DNA from: Candidatus Infernicultor aquiphilus
GTDB taxonomy: Bacteria; Atribacterota; Phoenicimicrobiia; Phoenicimicrobiales; Phoenicimicrobiaceae
Length of the DNA stretch: 38,668 nucleotides
Direction: 5' to 3'
Assembly: GCA_001873345.1 (NCBI GenBank)
Contig: MNYY01000004.1
Coordinates: 1 to 38,668 of the forward strand
This document shows positions 1,521-13,990 of the stretch, piece by piece; position 1 is the stretch's first letter; each line of letters opens with the position of its first letter. The notes below the pieces were generated by a model. The model was not told where the DNA came from. It ran no database searches and saw only the letters and a program-made list of their open reading frames with translations. Both the position numbers and the translations under genes were made by a program.

Positions 1521-2576
1521 ATGTTTAAATACTTTACAGCAGATACTAACAATCAAGAAGAATATGCCTTTGCTAATGGAAGGATTAAAAAATTAGAAAA
1601 GGGATTATTAACTAAAGATTTATTAGATAGAATGATAAAATCAACTGATACTATATCTGCGATAAAAATTTTAATGGAAGGTAATTTAAATAATTATTCC
1701 TTTGACCTTAATAATCCTGAAAATTATGAAGATTCATTAAATCGAGAATTATTATCTAGTTACAATATCATAAAAGATATTTCTAAAGTTTCTACTTTTA
1801 ATTTTCTATATTTCACATTTGCTTCTAAATATGATTTTCATAATATCAAAATACTTATAAAATCGAAATATTTAAAAGAAGACGTTTCTGATAAATTAAT
1901 ATCACCAATTGGTACCATAAATATAAAAAAACTTAATTTAGCGATTATAGACGAAAAATATGAAGATCTTCCTAATTCTTTTGAATTTTTAATTAAAAAA
2001 ATATTTTTAGAATATAGTAAATTTAAAGACCCAGAGATAATAGATTTCATTCTAGATAAAGAAAGATATGTTATGATATTTAATAAAATTAAAGAGGTTG
2101 AAGTGATAGAGACAGAGGAAAATTTTTTAAAAAGGTTTATTAAAATAAATATAGATCTTAATAATATAATTAGTTCTATTAGAGCAAAAATAAGGGGAGA
2201 AGAAAAAATATTCTTAAAAAATTTTTTAATTAGCGAAGGTGATTTTAATATAAAAAACATAGTAGCAGTTTATGATTCACCGTTGTCTTCTTGGCCTGAA
2301 AAGTTAGTTTATACTGATTATAAAAATGTAATTGAATTAGGCATAAAATATTTTCAAAAAAATAATTCCTTAATGGAATTAGAAAAGTTAAGAGATAATT
2401 TTATTATTAATTTTACTAAAGTAGGAAAATTAATTACCTTTGGGATAGAACCTTTAGTAGGATTTATGGTAGCTAAAGAAAATGATATAAAAAATATTAG
2501 AATAATTTTATCAGGTAAGTTAAATAAATTACTTCCCAGTACCATTAAAGAAAGTGTTCGTGATACTTATGTATAA
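1521..2576 (+). CDS. ntpC: V-type ATPase subunit C (eukaryotic d homologue)
   Basis: 351 aa. The C-terminal LVGFMVAKENDIKNIRIILSGK is typical of the A/V-type C subunit, and the operon position fits. Confidence 0.85.
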   Translation: MFKYFTADTNNQEEYAFANGRIKKLEKGLLTKDLLDRMIKSTDTISAIKILMEGNLNNYSFDLNNPENYEDSLNRELLSSYNIIKDISKVSTFNFLYFTFASKYDFHNIKILIKSKYLKEDVSDKLISPIGTINIKKLNLAIIDEKYEDLPNSFEFLIKKIFLEYSKFKDPEIIDFILDKERYVMIFNKIKEVEVIETEENFLKRFIKINIDLNNIISSIRAKIRGEEKIFLKNFLISEGDFNIKNIVAVYDSPLSSWPEKLVYTDYKNVIELGIKYFQKNNSLMELEKLRDNFIINFTKVGKLITFGIEPLVGFMVAKENDIKNIRIILSGKLNKLLPSTIKESVRDTYV

Positions 2577-2895
2577 TATTGCTATGATAGGGAATAGAGA
2601 TTCAATTATCGGTTTTAAATTATTAGGTATCTCAATTTTCCCAGTAAGCAAAAAAGAAGAAACTATAGAAATATTAAACAAAATAGTAAAAGAGAAATAT
2701 GCAGCAGTATTTATAACTGAGGAAATAGCCATTCAAATATTTGAAAAAATAGAGGAATTACAAAAAAATAGTCTGCTCAGTTTCACTATAATTCCAAATA
2801 AGTTTGAAAAGAAAAACTTAGGATTAAAAATATTAGAAAAAAATATAGAAAAGGCAATTGGAACAGATATTTTATTTAGAAAAGAGGAAGAATAA
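2569..2895 (+). CDS. ntpG: V-type ATPase subunit F (NtpG in E. hirae nomenclature)
   Basis: [21 protein letters not shown]... is the typical F-subunit N-terminus. The ATG at 2569 overlaps the ntpC stop codon, so I prefer it to the GTG at 2554 in the ORF track. Confidence 0.8.
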
Positions 2896-4649
2896 TGGAA
2901 ACAGGAAAAATTATTAAAGTAGCAGGTCCAGTAGTTGAAGCTGAAGGTCTACGAGGCGCAAAAATGTATGATGTTGTAAAAGTAAGTAATCAAAAATTAA
3001 TCGGTGAAATAATTGAACTTGCTAAGGATTTAGTAACCATACAAGTTTATGAAGAAACCTCTGGCATTGGTCCTGGAGAACCTGTCTTTTCTACTGGTAT
3101 GCCTTTAAGTGTAGAATTAGGTCCTGGGTTAATTAAATCAATTTATGATGGAATTCAGAGACCTTTAGATTTAATTAGATTATCTAAGGGAGATTTTATT
3201 AGCCGGGGTGCTGAAGAAGATGCAATTAATAGAAAAAAGAAGTGGGATTTTGAGCCAGTTCTTAAAAAAGGAGATAAAGTAATTTCTGGAGATATTATTG
3301 GAACTGTTCAGGAAAGTAGTATTATCCAACATAAAATAATGATTCCATATGGAATCCAGGGTGAAATTGAAGAAATATATAAGGGTAAATTTACAGTTAC
3401 TGAAACAATTACCAAAATAAGAGATAGACAAGGATTACTTCAAGAAATAAAAATGTTGCAAAAATGGCCAGTAAGAAAATTGAGGCCTTATAAAGAAAAA
3501 TTACCTCCTTTTGAACCATTAATAACTGGTCAACGAGTAATTGATACGTTTTTCCCAATTGCGAAGGGAGGGACTGCTTGTATTCCAGGACCTTTTGGTA
3601 GTGGGAAAACAGTAATTCAGCATCAGCTTTCTAAGTGGTGTAACGCAGAAATTATTATTTTTATTGGATGTGGCGAGAGAGGGAATGAAATGACTGACGT
3701 TTTATTAGAATTTCCTGAATTAATTGATCCCCATACCGGAAAAAGACTAATGGAAAGAACTATCTTAATTGCTAATACTTCGAATATGCCGGTAGCAGCT
3801 CGTGAAGCTTCTGTTTATACTGGTATAACTATTGCTGAATACTATAGAGATATGGGTTATAATGTTGCACTTATGGCTGACTCGACTTCTCGTTGGGCAG
3901 AAGCAATGCGAGAAATTTCAGGTCGATTAGAAGAAATGCCAGGCGAAGAAGGTTACCCTGCTTATTTAGGGACTAGAATTTCTAGCTTTTATGAAAGATC
4001 AGGTAGAGTAAAATGTTTAAGTAATGATGATAGGGAAGCAACTTTAAGTGTCATCGGAGCTGTATCACCTCCGGGGGGAGATTTATCTGAACCAGTTACT
4101 CAAAATACCTTGCGTACAGTGCAAGTTTTTTGGAGTTTGCAAGATAAGTTAGCTTATGAAAGGCATTTTCCAGCGATTGATTGGTTAACTAGTTACTCCC
4201 TTTATTTATCTCAGTTATCTGAATTTTATGAAAAGGAAATTAATAAAGATTTTATAGAACTACGTAATAAATCTATGGGGATTCTTCAACAAGAAGCAGA
4301 ATTAGAAGAAATTGTAAGATTAGTTGGAGTTGATGCCTTATCAACTCATGAAAGATTAATATTAGAAACAGCGAGATCAATTAGAGAAGATTTTCTTCAT
4401 CAAGATGCTTTTGACGAAATAGATACCTATACTTCTGTAAAAAAACAATTTTTAATGTTAAAATTAATTATTTTATTCCATGAGACTGCAGAAAAAGTAA
4501 TTGTACAAGGTGTAAATATAGAAAAAATCAATTCCCTACCGGTTAAAAGTAATATAATAAGAGCTAAATATATTAAAGAAAATAATCTAAAAAAATTTAG
4601 TGAAATTGAAAAAGAAATAATATGTCAAATTAATTCAACAACCACTTAA
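2895..4649 (+). CDS. ntpA: V-type ATPase catalytic subunit A
   Basis: 584 aa with Walker A GPFGSGKT and a non-homologous insert region. The ATG overlaps the ntpG stop. Confidence 0.95.
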
Positions 4650-11262: not shown

Positions 11263-11296
11263 CCCCGGTGTCCTCGACCACCGGGGATCATTTTTT
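11263..11296 (+). terminator. Rho-independent terminator
   Basis: CCCCGGTG-tcctcgac-CACCGGGG followed by atcaTTTTTT, 47 nt after the Mth938-like stop codon. Confidence 0.75.
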
Positions 11297-11505: not shown

Positions 11506-11889
11506 TTGTTAATGAGTGAAAATGCTCCTTTTATTGTAAGTGATATTCAGGAAAGGTCTTTTTTAATTACTATAACAAATAAATCAAGTAGTTGTAATGA
11601 TATTGCACATTTTGTTGCTTTTTCAGGTGTTTGTATATCGACTTTTATAATGGCATTAAATATTGCAAGTTTAGGATACTTTACATGGGATTGGTTTGGC
11701 TTTTCAATGCGTACATATGAAGTTTACGATCCAATTAAAAAGAGCAATATTTTTCCATTTCTTTTGAAGATGGAAGGAAGAAAAGAATATTTTGAAGGAA
11801 GTATCAAAGAAATTTCAGAAAATGAAATTCGAAATACTCTAAAATATTATGGAGTTTTAGCAAAAGAAAAAAACAATATCTACAATTAG
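11506..11889 (+). CDS. Hypothetical protein with one predicted TM helix; possibly the 5' part of a frameshifted gene
   Basis: The ORF is open from 11341 but its first plausible starts are TTG 11506 or ATG 11512, with no clear SD. It has a hydrophobic stretch FVAFSGVCISTFIMALNIASLGYF. It ends just after an A7 tract (11867-11873), where the next ORF's frame opens. Confidence 0.35.
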   Translation: MLMSENAPFIVSDIQERSFLITITNKSSSCNDIAHFVAFSGVCISTFIMALNIASLGYFTWDWFGFSMRTYEVYDPIKKSNIFPFLLKMEGRKEYFEGSIKEISENEIRNTLKYYGVLAKEKNNIYN

Positions 11890-11911: not shown

Positions 11912-12280
11912 TTGCACCTAAGCCTTACGTTTTTTAATATAGATTTTTATAAAGAAGCTTTTTATAATTTTTATTGGTGCTTTGAGAATATCGTAACTAA
12001 TAAGGTTCTTCAAGTTGAGAAACTAGATAAAGAAGTTAAAGATATTGAAAAAGAAATAAATAAAGTAGGTCTTAAAAATATTTTTACTAAACAATTTATT
12101 AAATCCTCCTATTTAATACGTTCAAACCAAGTGATGCATGCTCAGAAAAAACAAGTAAACATAACATTAGATGATGTATATGCGATAAAAACATGTTTAA
12201 GGGATTTTTCTCGTTCCTTAAAAGATCATTTTTATGGATCTACCATTATATTTCACCAAGACATATTGAAAGATGTTTAA
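11912..12280 (+). pseudogene. Hypothetical all-helical ORF with HEPN-like Rx5H motif, apparently 3'-truncated by an IS remnant
   Basis: The frame is open from 11861. The motif YLIRSNQVMHAQ places R at 12119 and H at 12137. From about 12184 the other frame encodes a recognisable transposase tail, so the last ~30 codons of this ORF are probably fortuitous. Confidence 0.3.
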
Positions 12281-12390
12281 AAGAATGTAATTTTAGATAT
12301 AATATCAAAAAAGGTATAGAAGAAAATAGATTTAATTTACTTTTAGGCAATTGTTATGGTAGAATTACTTATAAAGAACTTATCAGTTAA
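12175..12390 (+). mobile_element. C-terminal remnant of an IS1595-family (ISXO2-like DDE) transposase
   Basis: KNMFKGFFSFLKRSFLWIYHYISPRHIERCLKECNFRYNIKK...FNLLL....ITYKELI matches the conserved tail of the family (N..E.FWS.LKR...G.YH.VS.KHL..YL.EF.FRYN.R). No upstream catalytic domain is present. Confidence 0.65.
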
Positions 12391-12410
12391 AAAATAAGGA
12401 AGTGATTTGG

Positions 12411-12968
12411 ATGATACCATATAGAGAAGAAAAGCGTGAAAATGCTATGTGTTATTTTGCTACCGAGCATTGCAATAAAACAGGAAGATATTTATCACAA
12501 ACAATATTGTTTAAATATTTAGCTTATTTAGATTTTTTAAGTTTAAAAGATATTGGTAAACCAGCTCTTGAATTTGAATATAAAGCTATGGTAAACGGAC
12601 CCGTACCACATGAATTATATAATGAGAGGAGAAATTATAAATCAAGATTGGTAGAATTTATTTCAAGAGGCAATGGTAAATATATTATAAAAGCAAAAGA
12701 GAATGCAAACCTAGACTATTTTTCAAAATACGAGATCGAAAAAATGGATGAATTGGTTAAGAAATATGCAGATCCCAATAAAGCCGAAAAAGAAAATACG
12801 GACAAAATTTGCGATGATATTCATAAAGATGTTCGAGCCTATGATGTAGCATATAAAAAGAAGAAAAATTCAATAATAGAATATAAGGACACGTTTAAAA
12901 ATATTTTTAGCAAAAAAGAATGCGAATTATCACCAATAGAAGAAAATTTTTTATTGTATCTACATTAA
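12411..12968 (+). CDS. Panacea (DUF4065, SocA/GepA-like) domain protein, putative antitoxin
   Basis: AAGGAAG sits 8 nt upstream of the ATG at 12411. LSQTILFKYLAYLDFLSLKDIGKPALEFEYKAMVNGPVPHELYNE fits the DUF4065 core pattern (K..KLLY..D......G.P......Y.A...GPV....Y). Confidence 0.6.
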   Translation: MIPYREEKRENAMCYFATEHCNKTGRYLSQTILFKYLAYLDFLSLKDIGKPALEFEYKAMVNGPVPHELYNERRNYKSRLVEFISRGNGKYIIKAKENANLDYFSKYEIEKMDELVKKYADPNKAEKENTDKICDDIHKDVRAYDVAYKKKKNSIIEYKDTFKNIFSKKECELSPIEENFLLYLH

Positions 12969-12973
12969 TGTAA

Positions 12974-13426
12974 ATGGAAATAGGTACAGTATTCAAATGG
13001 ATAAATTATCCTGAACAAAGAGATGGAATCACAAAAGACCGCTGGTTTGTATATTTAGGTACAAGCAGTAAATTATCTACACCATTAAACGTTTTTATCT
13101 TTACAACTACAAGTAAAACAAATCTCTATAAATCCGGGAATGAAAGAGAGAATAAAAAGAATACTATAAATTTTAAAGCCGGTGAGTTCGGATTTGATGT
13201 GGATTGTATTCTTGATGTATTTTTCTTTCAAAATAATTGGACACTTGGAGAATTTGAAAAATACAAGAAATATTTTGATATTAAAGGGAAAATATCTAAT
13301 GAAAAACTTAAAATTATCTATGGGAAAATATTAAAAGAAAATAGTATACAAAAAATAATAAAAATAGATATTAAAACAAACCTTAATAATATTAGAATTT
13401 TTGGTTTAGAAAGGCCAAAGCAGTAA
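12974..13426 (+). CDS. Uncharacterised 150-aa protein, putative cognate toxin (MazF/PemK-like pattern)
   Basis: It starts 5 nt after the upstream stop codon. EIGTVFKWINYPEQRDGITKDRWFVYLG...NVFIFTTTSK...CILDVFF...KGKISNEKLKIIYGKILKE follows the order of conserved MazF/Kid features (G.i..v.f.P......K.RP.vvl ... v..P.TS ... v..dq ... G.l....l..i). The assignment is by eye only. Confidence 0.35.
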   Translation: MEIGTVFKWINYPEQRDGITKDRWFVYLGTSSKLSTPLNVFIFTTTSKTNLYKSGNERENKKNTINFKAGEFGFDVDCILDVFFFQNNWTLGEFEKYKKYFDIKGKISNEKLKIIYGKILKENSIQKIIKIDIKTNLNNIRIFGLERPKQ

Positions 13427-13990
13427 TTTTTATGGAGAAAAAAACAAATCTAAAACTTAATATGCCTTTCGAAAAAGCTCTTGAGAGATTTGCGTCTATA
13501 AATATAAACAGATATTACAGAAATTGAAGAAGTATCTAATGGCAAAAAACCGGTACTTTTTATTAAATGGATTGGTGATACATTTTTTAATTCCTAGTTA
13601 ATGAAAAAAATACTGTAAATATTTTATTTTTAAATTATGAAATAATTAAACCTTCAATTTCGTCATTTAAGGGGGGGTCTTTTATCCCCTTCACATATAA
13701 TTAATCACAAGTGACTTTTTATACAGTGTTTCTCCATAAAAATATTTTTAAAAAAGAAGGAGTTTGTGTAATCTCCATATAAGTATTATATTAAGAGTCT
13801 TTTAAAAATATAATAGGGGGTTTTGTTGTATATGTATTTGAATAATAGAATCGTAGCAAAAGATATAATAAATGATGTAAAAGAAATCACATTTAATTAT
13901 GAGGTCTTGAGAGTTTCTTTCTTTTTTTTATTATTTGATTTACTTTACATAAGATATATTATAGGACGTAGTAAAATTATAAAAAATAGG

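What the first reader, a model, noticed from the sequence alone, without database searches (positions are those of the whole stretch)
12396..13426. Intact two-gene module: Panacea/DUF4065-like antitoxin coupled to an unassigned 150-aa partner with a MazF/PemK-like pattern
These are the only two intact accessory genes in the window, and they sit in a bed of decayed mobile DNA.
- **Arrangement:** the two genes are separated by 5 nt. The first has a good SD (AAGGAAG, 8 nt from the ATG at 12411) and the second has none, which is the usual translationally coupled antitoxin-toxin layout.
- **Upstream protein:** it carries the DUF4065 core (LFKYLAYLDF...GKPALEFEYKAMVNGPVPHELY). Panacea-domain antitoxins (PanA) are known to pair promiscuously with many unrelated toxin domains, so an unfamiliar partner here is a candidate new PanT toxin.
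- **Downstream protein:** I cannot place it in a named family. It follows the order of MazF/Kid hallmarks (G-hydrophobic-x-hydrophobic-x-aromatic-P ... K-x-R-x-hydrophobic ... TTTSK ... ILD ... KGKIS..KL..I) but is about 35 aa longer, with a K/N-rich insert and tail.
Basis: partly seen in the sequence, partly recalled or inferred. Interest (0 to 1): 0.7.

Follow-up and report, generated by a model that had tools for sequence, protein, structure and literature searches.

The report
PanA antitoxin with MazF-like toxin
This is an intact two-gene toxin-antitoxin cassette: a Panacea-domain antitoxin followed by a very divergent, unannotated MazF-type RNA-cutting toxin, a pairing already described in the literature, so it is a sound but fairly ordinary find.

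Summary
Both ORFs exist as described: panA 12411-12968 and a 150-aa gene 12974-13426, 5 nt apart.

**Antitoxin.** The first protein hits Pfam PF13274 (SocA_Panacea) at 43 bits, above the 25.7-bit cutoff.

**Toxin.**
- It has no hit in Pfam, NCBIfam, PHROGs or PADLOC.
- Its AlphaFold2 model (pLDDT 84.7) matches MazF in 49 of the top 50 PDB hits, and PemK-like proteins or an endoribonuclease in the top 9 viral hits.
- A profile-profile alignment to MazF (E 1.9e-4) places the family's conserved Arg23 and Thr46 on the residues I recall as the B. subtilis MazF catalytic pair (Arg25, Thr48).
- An exhaustive search finds about 216 clusters (50% identity), seen only in metagenomes and MAGs among those checked.

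**Synteny and mobility.**
- All 15 distinct genomic contexts examined have a PanA gene directly upstream, with gaps of -25 to +7 nt.
- Both genes are under purifying selection (dN/dS 0.09-0.43).
- Neighbours include IS1595 transposons, integrases, a serine recombinase and a phage.
- Long DNA homology to close relatives covers only the cassette (about 12356-13427).

**Verdict.** However, PanA paired with "hypothetical" MazF-fold toxins was published and tested by Kurata et al. 2022. This is a new sequence family of a known kind. Toxicity and neutralisation are untested.

The parts
12178..12390 (+). C-terminal remnant (about 70 codons) of an IS1595-family (ISXO2-like) DDE transposase. It lies directly upstream of panA and is context, not part of the functional module.
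   Evidence: Pfam PF12762 matches at 25.6 bits (E 1.3e-5), just under the gathering cutoff of 27. tblastn gives 32% identity to residues 234-301 of the intact IS1595 transposases of L001 and L007, E 5e-8.
12336..12365 (+). Putative cassette promoter (inferred, not shown): -35-like TTTACT (12336-12341), 18-nt spacer, extended -10 TGgTAGAAT (12357-12365).
   Evidence: A consensus scan flags this site. The -10 region lies at the 5' edge of the DNA block shared with relatives, where homology starts at 12356-12371.
12396..12402 (+). Shine-Dalgarno sequence AAGGAAG of panA, 8 nt before the ATG.
   Evidence: It is read directly from the sequence. GGAAGTGATTT is shared by the four closest relatives (window, L009, L030, L033) and diverges in L014, L007 and L001.
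12411..12968 (+). panA: a 185-aa Panacea-domain antitoxin. Residues 33-123 form the Panacea domain, and a conserved 62-aa C-terminal extension ends in EENFLLY.
   Evidence: PF13274 matches at 43 bits against a cutoff of 25.7. All 11 orthologues tested also hit PF13274. Residues H138, A143, N153, F162, K168, L173 and E177 in the C-terminal extension are invariant. dN/dS is 0.09-0.21.
12968..12973 (+). ATG-TAA mini-ORF that bridges the panA stop and the toxin start. It is a likely translational-coupling junction.
   Evidence: The sequence here is TAATGTAAATG. L014, L007 and L001 have the simpler TAATG overlap instead.
12974..13426 (+). panT: a 150-aa divergent MazF/PemK-fold putative endoribonuclease toxin. 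Predicted catalytic residues are Arg23 and Thr46. It has a family-specific insert (about 50-62) and an extra C-terminal helix and tail (about 121-150).
   Evidence: It has no Pfam, NCBIfam, PHROG or PADLOC hit. The AF2 model has pLDDT 84.7 and pTM 0.80. In Foldseek PDB, 49 of the top 50 hits are MazF/EndoA/MoxT chains. The top 9 BFVD hits are PemK-like proteins or an endoribonuclease. hhalign against MazF gives E 1.9e-4 and pairs R23 with R25 and T46 with T48. R23 is conserved in 67/75 members and T46 in 74/75. dN/dS is 0.15-0.43.
13428..13640 (.). Window-specific segment of about 215 nt. It sits where close relatives (L009, L030, L033) have a hairpin plus T-run terminator straight after the toxin stop.
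   Evidence: This is seen in the DNA alignment of the regions downstream of the toxin.
13641..13701 (.). Short conserved downstream element (AAACCTTCAATTT...GGGGGGTCTTTTATCCCC...TATAAT) shared with L033 and L030. Its function is unknown.
   Evidence: blastn gives 82% identity over 61 nt to L033 3957-4015. The alignment is, and the element occurs once in the window.

Best explanation
**What it is.** The two genes form a self-contained, horizontally mobile type II toxin-antitoxin cassette of the PanA-PanT kind. They are probably transcribed from their own promoter about 50 nt upstream. Translation is probably coupled across a 5-nt junction containing an ATG-TAA mini-ORF.

**The toxin.** The 150-aa product is a highly divergent member of the MazF/PemK fold. 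When free, it most likely cuts single-stranded RNA (mRNA, rRNA or tRNA), using Arg23 and Thr46, which align with the MazF catalytic Arg/Thr pair. This would stop translation and growth.

**The antitoxin.** The 185-aa PanA protein binds the toxin and keeps it inactive. Binding could be through its Panacea domain or its conserved 62-aa C-terminal extension.

**Likely role.** The cassette most likely stabilises the mobile elements that carry it, or acts in abortive-infection defence.

**Shown here**
- both ORFs are intact and under purifying selection
- the Panacea domain is present
- the predicted fold is MazF-like
- the aligned Arg/Thr pair is conserved
- the pair is strictly syntenic
- the cassette has sharp boundaries and sits in mobile contexts

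**Inferred**
- RNase activity and its target
- toxicity
- direct neutralisation by PanA
- the promoter
- the biological role
For: **Panacea domain.** The window PanA scores 43 bits against a 25.7-bit cutoff. All 11 orthologues tested also hit PF13274.

**Toxin structure.**
- The AF2 model has pLDDT 84.7 and pTM 0.80.
- In Foldseek PDB, 49 of the top 50 hits are MazF/EndoA/MoxT chains. Probability is about 1.0, target TM-score 0.55-0.74 and identity 10-16%. No CcdB appears in the list.
- An independent viral library gives PemK-like proteins or an endoribonuclease as its top 9 hits.

**Sequence-level link to MazF.**
- hhalign of the 75-member family profile against a 14-member MazF/PemK/Kid alignment gives E 1.9e-4 over 102 columns.
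- It pairs G4 with G6, P13 with P15, R23 with R25 and T46 with T48 (B. subtilis MazF numbering). It also aligns the G-F-x-x-D-(C/S) motif.
- Across the family, K21 is kept in 74/75 members, R23 in 67/75, T46 in 74/75 and R58 in 65/75.

**Synteny.**
- PanA lies directly upstream in all 15 distinct contexts, with toxin identity ranging from 100% down to 26%.
- Gaps between the two genes range from -25 to +7 nt.
- The two proteins diverge in parallel.

**Selection.** dN/dS is 0.09-0.43 for both genes.

**Cassette boundaries.** The long DNA homology (about 89-90% identity) to L009, L030 and L033 covers only window 12356/12371-13427.

**Mobile contexts.**
- inside IS1595 transposons bounded by inverted repeats
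- next to tyrosine integrases
- next to a large serine recombinase
- next to a type I restriction-modification system
- in a phage-like region with a terminase

**Toxin-first decay.** In L016 the toxin carries an in-frame stop while PanA is intact, as expected for a decaying toxin-antitoxin pair.

**Precedent.** PanA pairs with MazF-fold toxins that have no domain hit. Those tested are toxic, are neutralised by PanA and inhibit translation. Complex formation was shown for the P. moraviensis pair (Kurata et al. 2022, PMC8832971).
Against: - No sequence-level membership in PF02452: 0 of 75 family members hit it.
- The family profile finds PDB MazF chains only at E about 0.9.
- hhalign probability is only 47%, so homology rests mainly on a predicted structure.
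- R23 is replaced in 8 of 75 members.
- No complex model could be made.
- Some MazF-like or mRNase-like PanT candidates were not toxic in E. coli in Kurata's screen. One PanA partnered with a MazF-like toxin was itself toxic when overexpressed.
- No experiment exists on this family.
Confidence: 0.75

Rival explanations
1. The 150-aa protein is a CcdB-like poison of DNA gyrase, or another non-RNase toxin built on the shared CcdB/MazF fold. It would still be neutralised by PanA.
For: CcdB and MazF share one fold, from established structural knowledge. In Kurata's HHpred output for a MazF-like PanT cluster, CcdB also scores 98%. Sequence identity to MazF here is only 10-16%.
Against: No CcdB chain appears in the 50 PDB matches listed. 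The residues that align with the MazF catalytic Arg and Thr are among the most conserved in the family. MazF-fold PanTs that have been tested inhibit translation.
Confidence: 0.05
2. The pair is not a growth-arresting toxin-antitoxin system. The MazF-fold protein would be a non-toxic RNA- or DNA-binding accessory or regulatory factor of mobile elements (for example IS1595 transposons) that works together with the Panacea protein.
For: The pair is the terminal cargo inside inverted-repeat-bounded IS1595 elements in two lineages, and it abuts an IS1595 remnant in the window. Several predicted PanT candidates, including a MazF-like one, were not toxic in E. coli. No toxicity data exist for this family.
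Against: The pair also occurs with integrases, a serine recombinase, a restriction-modification system and a phage, with no IS1595 nearby. The catalytic-type Arg/Thr pair is conserved. A toxin-only pseudogene with an intact antitoxin exists.
Confidence: 0.1
3. The molecular parts are the same, but the main role is anti-phage abortive infection. PanA would act as a sensor that releases or activates the RNase on infection, rather than serving as an addiction module. This rival concerns the role, not the mechanism.
For: Relatives sit in defence-island-like neighbourhoods. One has an AAA_15/AAA_21 ATPase and a trypsin-like protease. Another has a type I restriction-modification system. Others sit beside further toxin-antitoxin-like pairs. 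Ernits et al. 2023 (PMC10440598) propose a sensory role for Panacea.
Against: There is no PADLOC model hit. Many contexts are transposons or integrative elements, where stabilisation is an equally good explanation. One copy is phage-borne. No phage-challenge data exist.
Confidence: 0.3

Closest known systems
PanA-PanT systems with MazF-fold PanT toxins: clusters T5 and T6, and the tested PanT of Pseudomonas moraviensis and Bifidobacterium ruminantium (Kurata et al. 2022, PNAS, PMC8832971)
   Same: - The gene order is antitoxin then toxin.
- PanA has no extra N-terminal domain.
- Gaps or overlaps are tiny (-20 to +11 nt for most T5 pairs, -1 or -4 for the T6 pairs seen, versus -25 to +7 nt here).
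- The toxin is annotated 'hypothetical protein', has no CDD or Pfam hit and is predicted to have the EndoA/PemK/MazF fold.
- The two tested examples are toxic, are neutralised by PanA and selectively inhibit translation; complex formation was shown for the P. moraviensis pair.
   Different: - T5 and T6 come from cultured Proteobacteria, Bacteroidetes, Cyanobacteria and others.
- This family was seen only in metagenomes and MAGs among the hits and the 20 clusters checked (Latescibacteria, Riflebacteria, Ozemobacteraceae, Planctomycetota, Actinomycetota, Syntrophales).
- It has no tblastn match in plasmid or phage records.
- I could not retrieve T5 or T6 sequences, so whether they are the same sequence family is untested.
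Canonical MazF/PemK/Kid/EndoA endoribonuclease toxins (Pfam PF02452; e.g. B. subtilis MazF, PDB 4MDX)
   Same: - The predicted fold is the same, with the same order of strands and a C-terminal helix.
- The aligned motifs are G-x-V/I-aromatic...P, an R-containing strand (KxRWF against GVRPV), T-x-Q (TTTSQ against AITAQ) and GFxxD(C/S)vIL.
- The catalytic-equivalent Arg and Thr are conserved.
   Different: - Identity is 10-16%, and PF02452 does not hit any of 75 members.
- The protein is about 35 aa longer. It has a conserved Y-x-x-G-G-x-R-x-x-H insert after the Thr strand, a second C-terminal helix and a GIxGLKxP tail.
- The partner is a Panacea protein, not a MazE/AbrB or RHH antitoxin.
Kurata cluster T1 PanT ('mRNase', e.g. 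Salmonella phage vB_SemP_Emek orf161 with PanA orf149)
   Same: PanA lies upstream (PF13274, 88 bits) of an unannotated toxin candidate of about 160 aa.
   Different: - The toxin is unrelated: hhalign of the family profile against Emek orf161 gives probability 0.07%.
- The Emek PanA (149 aa) lacks the 62-aa C-terminal extension.
- T1 representatives were not toxic in E. coli.
SocA-SocB (type VI toxin-antitoxin system, Caulobacter)
   Same: The antitoxin carries the same Pfam domain (SocA_Panacea).
   Different: - The NCBIfam SocA equivalog scores 11.8 bits against a cutoff of 190.
- The partner is not SocB-like.
- SocA works as a ClpXP adaptor, whereas PanAT pairs studied so far act by direct binding.
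Toxin-antitoxin modules carried as cargo of transposons (reported for Tn3-family transposons; recalled from memory, not checked here)
   Same: In L001-L006 and L007 the PanAT pair lies inside the terminal inverted repeats of an IS1595-family element, next to a second PIN-containing pair.
   Different: The transposon family is different (IS1595, a DDE insertion sequence with passenger genes). In the window only a transposase remnant survives, and the inverted repeat is absent.

Membership tests
Panacea-domain antitoxin (PanA; Pfam PF13274 SocA_Panacea / DUF4065) | Significant match to PF13274 above the gathering threshold. | tested here: met
   The window protein scores 43 bits against a cutoff of 25.7, E 1e-10, over residues 33-123. 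All 11 orthologues tested also match.
Panacea-domain antitoxin (PanA; Pfam PF13274 SocA_Panacea / DUF4065) | Conserved two-gene arrangement with an adjacent putative toxin. | tested here: met
   All 15 distinct contexts have PanA directly upstream, with gaps of -25 to +7 nt.
Panacea-domain antitoxin (PanA; Pfam PF13274 SocA_Panacea / DUF4065) | Neutralises the cognate toxin by forming a complex with it. | not testable with these tools
This needs co-expression and pull-down experiments.
MazF/PemK endoribonuclease toxins (Pfam PF02452) | Sequence match to PF02452. | tested here: not met
   Neither the window protein nor any of 75 family members hits it. The family profile finds PDB MazF chains only at E about 0.9.
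MazF/PemK endoribonuclease toxins (Pfam PF02452) | CcdB/MazF fold: an SH3-like beta barrel with a C-terminal helix. | tested here: met
   The AF2 model has pLDDT 84.7. In Foldseek PDB, 49 of the top 50 hits are MazF/EndoA/MoxT chains, with probability about 1.0 and target TM-score 0.55-0.74. The top 9 BFVD hits are PemK-like proteins or an endoribonuclease. This rests on a predicted structure, not a solved one.
MazF/PemK endoribonuclease toxins (Pfam PF02452) | Catalytic Arg and Thr (R25/T48 in B. subtilis MazF, R29/T52 in E. coli MazF; the catalytic roles are recalled from the literature, not re-checked here). | tested here: met
   hhalign pairs R23 with R25 and T46 with T48 (E 1.9e-4, probability 47%). 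R23 is conserved in 67/75 members and T46 in 74/75. The residue equivalence depends on a moderate-confidence alignment.
MazF/PemK endoribonuclease toxins (Pfam PF02452) | Sequence-specific, ribosome-independent cleavage of single-stranded RNA, and a homodimeric state. | not testable with these tools
   This needs a purified-protein RNA cleavage assay and size-exclusion chromatography or a crystal structure.
Type II toxin-antitoxin system | Two small co-directional genes with a short gap or overlap that move together as a unit. | tested here: met
   The gap is 5 nt in the window. The long nucleotide homology to relatives is limited to 12356/12371-13427. The neighbours differ in each context.
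Type II toxin-antitoxin system | The toxin arrests growth and the antitoxin protein rescues it. | not testable with these tools
   There are no experiments on this family. The precedent comes only from other PanAT pairs.
CcdB gyrase poisons | Closest structural relatives are CcdB rather than MazF. | tested here: not met
   No CcdB chain appears in the 50 PDB matches listed.
Kurata 2022 PanT cluster T1 | Detectable homology to a T1 member (phage Emek orf161). | tested here: not met
   hhalign probability is 0.07%.
Kurata 2022 PanT clusters T5/T6 (MazF-fold) | Detectable sequence homology to T5 or T6 members (e.g. WP_116809181.1, WP_083201923.1). | not testable with these tools
   Those sequences could not be retrieved. 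Indirectly, the 20 family clusters looked up contain only metagenome or MAG sequences and no isolate proteins.
SocA (type VI antitoxin equivalog, NCBIfam NF047745) | Score above the equivalog cutoff. | tested here: not met
   The score is 11.8 bits against a cutoff of 190.

The most novel reading that the evidence does not exclude
This toxin family is a distinct, so far undescribed branch of the MazF fold that always partners with PanA. Its conserved insert (Y-x-x-G-G-x-R-x-x-H) and extra C-terminal helix and tail could give it a new RNA target or a new neutralisation interface. The promoter-to-stop cassette may also be a dedicated addiction cargo that IS1595-family transposons pick up and exchange, which would be a transposon-stabilisation role not yet described for that IS family.
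Probability: 0.15. Interest if true: 0.5.

Novelty: new member of a known kind. Interest (0 to 1): 0.3.

Why it matters
- **New family.** It adds a well-delimited, unannotated protein family to the MazF-fold toxins: about 216 clusters at 50% identity, with no Pfam, NCBIfam, PHROG or PADLOC model. It extends the catalogue of Panacea partners into uncultured lineages.
- **Annotation.** A family model built from these alignments would let annotation pipelines name these 'hypothetical proteins'.
- **Further study.** The strict PanA partnership and the conserved C-terminal extension of this PanA make the pair a tractable case for asking how Panacea antitoxins neutralise a MazF-type RNase. The IS1595-borne copies are a lead on toxin-antitoxin cargo in insertion sequences.
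- **Limits.** It does not change the current picture of toxin-antitoxin biology.

Tried and rejected
- **Sequence libraries.** The toxin has no hit in Pfam, NCBIfam, PHROGs or PADLOC, and no significant phmmer hit in the PDB. The family profile against PDB sequences gives only MazF at E about 0.9, which is not significant.
- **Genome-collection scan.** With A1 it found only two loci, one of which duplicates L007.
- **Viral contigs.** The IMG/VR scan found no relatives.
- **Plasmids and phages.** tblastn of the toxin against plasmids and phages, and of PanA against plasmids, found no match.
- **PanA model.** The single-sequence PanA model has pLDDT 47 and is unusable.
- **PanA in the PDB.** The PanA profile found no solved relative by sequence.
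- **IS1595 inverted repeat.** The terminal inverted repeat of L001/L007 is absent from the window, so the window copy is not inside that element.
- **Non-coding RNA.** Rfam, tRNA and tandem-repeat scans of the region found nothing that suggests an RNA antitoxin or other RNA feature.
- **Wrong record.** I first fetched phage Oslo from a misremembered accession and then the right one, Emek.
- **Kurata clusters.** T1 was tested and rejected as a relative. T5 and T6 sequences could not be obtained.
- **CcdB-like reading.** It was considered and ranked low.
Full report
**1. Observation**

The first runs 12411-12968 (185 aa; an alternative GTG lies at 12402). The second runs 12974-13426 (150 aa), on the same strand.

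AAGGAAG sits at 12396-12402, 8 nt before the ATG at 12411. Orthologues begin at the equivalent residue, several with GTG, so 12411 is the likely start.

The junction reads TAA-TG-TAA-ATG. The panA stop is followed by an ATG-TAA mini-ORF and then the toxin ATG. There is no Shine-Dalgarno sequence before the toxin gene. L014, L007 and L001 have a TAATG overlap instead, and more distant relatives overlap by 10-25 nt or leave up to 7 nt. This fits translational coupling.

**2. The first protein**

Pfam PF13274 (SocA_Panacea) matches residues 33-123 at 43 bits, above the gathering cutoff of 25.7. All 11 orthologues I extracted also hit it.

It is not a SocA equivalog: the NCBIfam score is 11.8 bits against a cutoff of 190.

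It has no extra N-terminal domain. It does have a conserved 62-aa C-terminal extension with invariant H138, A143, N153, F162, K168, L173 and E177. The closer orthologues end in EENFLLY.

**3. The second protein**

*Sequence searches.*
- There is no hit in Pfam, NCBIfam, PHROGs or PADLOC, and no significant PDB sequence hit.
- A word-indexed search found 28 close homologues at 55-100% identity, every source-given name being 'hypothetical protein'.
- An exhaustive profile search of 1.84 billion cluster representatives found 216 clusters at E <= 1e-3. Most are 141-169 aa.
- None of 75 representatives has a Pfam domain.

*Structure.*
- AlphaFold2 with the family alignment gives a confident model (pLDDT 84.7, pTM 0.80).
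- The model has seven strands, two short helices, a C-terminal helix (109-120) and an extra helix (127-139).
- In Foldseek against the PDB, 49 of the top 50 hits are MazF/EndoA/MoxT chains. Probability is about 1.0, target TM-score 0.55-0.74 and identity 10-16%. No CcdB appears.
- Against the viral BFVD library, the top 9 hits are PemK-like proteins or an endoribonuclease.

*Alignment to MazF.*
- I built a MazF/PemK/Kid alignment.
- hhalign of the family profile against it gives E 1.9e-4 (probability 47%) over 102 columns.
- It pairs G4 with G6, P13 with P15, R23 with R25 and T46 with T48. It also aligns GFxxD(C/S)xIL with GFERDSVIL.
- From my recollection of the MazF literature, R25 and T48 are the catalytic pair in B. 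subtilis MazF.
- In the 75-member alignment K21 is kept in 74/75 members, R23 in 67/75, T46 in 74/75 and R58 in 65/75.

*Extra length.* Relative to MazF, the extra residues are an insert after the Thr strand (consensus Y-x-x-G-G-x-R-x-x-H) plus a second C-terminal helix and a GIxGLKxP tail.

**4. Synteny, selection and mobility**

I examined 15 distinct genomic contexts, with toxin identity from 100% down to 26%.
- Every one has a Panacea gene directly upstream.
- In L029 the gene caller reported only an 87-aa fragment, but the full GTG-initiated PanA is intact.
- PanA and toxin identities fall in parallel across the loci.
- Pairwise dN/dS is 0.09-0.21 for panA and 0.15-0.43 for the toxin.

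Apart from a few short matches of 35-61 nt, nucleotide homology between the window and its closest relatives (about 89-90% identity) covers only 12356/12371-13427. The block starts at a promoter-like site with an extended -10 (TGgTAGAAT, 12357-12365) and ends at the toxin stop. The two genes therefore travel as a discrete cassette.

Neighbours differ from locus to locus:
- IS1595 transposons
- an AAA_15/21 ATPase and a trypsin-like protease
- tyrosine integrases
- a large serine recombinase
- a type I restriction-modification system
- an SDH-type protease
- a DUF2158/DUF6953 pair
- a phage-like region with VRR_NUC and a terminase

In L016 the toxin has an in-frame stop while PanA is intact.

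In the window's own organism the locus is fixed. The identical toxin protein is indexed in 140 blocks of the collection. All 8 places shown have the same neighbours.

**5. Surroundings in the window**

- Directly upstream (12178-12390) is the C-terminal 70 codons of an IS1595-family transposase. PF12762 scores 25.6 bits, just below the gathering cutoff. It is 32% identical to the intact transposases of L001 and L007.
- ORFs 11506-11889 and 11912-12280 have no significant family match.
- Downstream, close relatives have a hairpin terminator right after the toxin stop. The window has a different 215-nt segment there (13428-13640), followed by a short shared element at 13641-13701.

**6. Mechanism**

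The best reading is a type II PanA-PanT module.
- The toxin is a MazF-fold endoribonuclease that uses Arg23 and Thr46.
- PanA binds and inhibits it.
- The cassette stabilises mobile elements, acts in abortive infection, or both.

The shown and inferred steps are listed under Best explanation. I could not model the complex. Whether the Panacea core or the C-terminal extension neutralises the toxin therefore remains open. Ernits et al. 2023 show both modes exist among PanA proteins.

**7. Comparison with what is known**

Kurata et al. 2022 (PMC8832971) already report the following:
- PanA pairs with PemK-domain toxins.
- It also pairs with 'hypothetical' toxins that lack CDD hits and that HHpred assigns to EndoA/PemK/MazF (clusters T5 and T6).
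- Those pairs have antitoxin-then-toxin order, PanA without an N-terminal domain, and mostly tiny gaps or overlaps.
- The P. moraviensis and B. ruminantium PanTs are toxic, are neutralised and selectively block translation. Complex formation with PanA was shown for P. moraviensis.

The kind is therefore known.

How this family relates to those clusters:
- It is not Kurata's T1 cluster (hhalign probability 0.07% against phage Emek orf161).
- I could not retrieve T5 or T6 sequences to test identity with them.
- Indirectly, the 20 family clusters I looked up, and all named hits, come only from metagenomes or MAGs: Latescibacteria, Riflebacteria, Ozemobacteraceae, Planctomycetota, Actinomycetota and Syntrophales.
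- T5 and T6 are common in cultured Proteobacteria and Bacteroidetes.

**8. Verdict**

This is a new, unannotated sequence family belonging to an already described kind of system: a Panacea antitoxin with a MazF-fold toxin. Interest is modest at 0.3. The main value is for annotation, as a clean PanA:MazF-like pair for mechanistic work, and as a lead on toxin-antitoxin cargo in IS1595 elements.

Noticed in passing
L001 3106-6478 (same in L002-L006); L007 1-3380: In these relatives the PanA-toxin pair forms the last two genes of an IS1595-family transposon of about 3.37 kb. Terminal inverted repeats (core ATATACTTGACAAACCCAAAT) bound the element, and the right repeat overlaps the toxin stop in L001 and starts 4 nt after it in L007. 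The gene order is transposase, a 244-aa unknown protein, a PIN protein, a 49-aa protein, PanA, then the toxin. No clear target-site duplication was seen.
   Followed up: partly
L001 4100-5308 versus L007 995-2215: Between these two transposons the transposase is 86% identical and the PanA-toxin pair is also close (dN 0.10-0.13). The middle pair is far more divergent: the 244-aa protein is 31% identical and the PIN protein 41%. This suggests cassette exchange inside the element.
   Followed up: no
L016 3983-4429 (Planctomycetota MAG, VRUG01000064.1): The toxin orthologue carries a single in-frame stop at codon 95, while the upstream PanA (3420-3992) is intact. This is either toxin-first decay or a sequencing error.
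   Followed up: partly
window 12966-12976: The junction TAATGTAAATG contains an ATG-TAA mini-ORF between the two genes. It looks like a 6-nt insertion relative to the TAATG overlap seen in L014, L007 and L001. L009 shows the same junction, and L030 and L033 have the same 5-nt gap.
   Followed up: partly
window 13428-13701: A window-specific 215-nt segment (13428-13640) replaces the hairpin plus T-run terminator that follows the toxin stop in L009, L030 and L033. A 61-nt element (13641-13701, containing GGGGGGGTCTTTTATCCCC) is shared with L033 and L030 and has no known function.
   Followed up: partly
window 11506-11889 and 11912-12280: These two ORFs (127 and 122 aa) lie between the DUF498 gene and the IS1595 remnant. 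They have no significant Pfam match and no relatives in the other loci. The second overlaps the transposase remnant in another frame. They are called as genes in public assemblies of the same organism.
   Followed up: partly
window 11263-11288: A strong GC-rich hairpin followed by a T-run (CCCCGGTG...CACCGGGG ATCATTTTTT) sits after the DUF498 gene. It is a likely intrinsic terminator that marks the end of the housekeeping operon before the accessory region.
   Followed up: no
L036 (ERR3486528 contig) 2397-3447: A distant copy of the pair (toxin 37% identical) lies in a phage-like region with VRR_NUC, PAPS_reduct and a large terminase subunit. The module is therefore also phage-borne, although the IMG/VR pattern scan found none.
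   Followed up: no
L007 3689-4303 (minus strand): A canonical PemK/MazF toxin (118 aa, PF02452) with a 79-aa upstream partner, and then a Fic-domain gene, lie just downstream of the IS1595-PanAT element. This looks like a toxin-antitoxin-rich island.
   Followed up: no
P0143/P0185 (193 aa): One family member matches only the N-terminal half of the toxin profile (residues 1-82) within a 193-aa protein. It is either a fusion or a frameshift and was not examined further.
   Followed up: no
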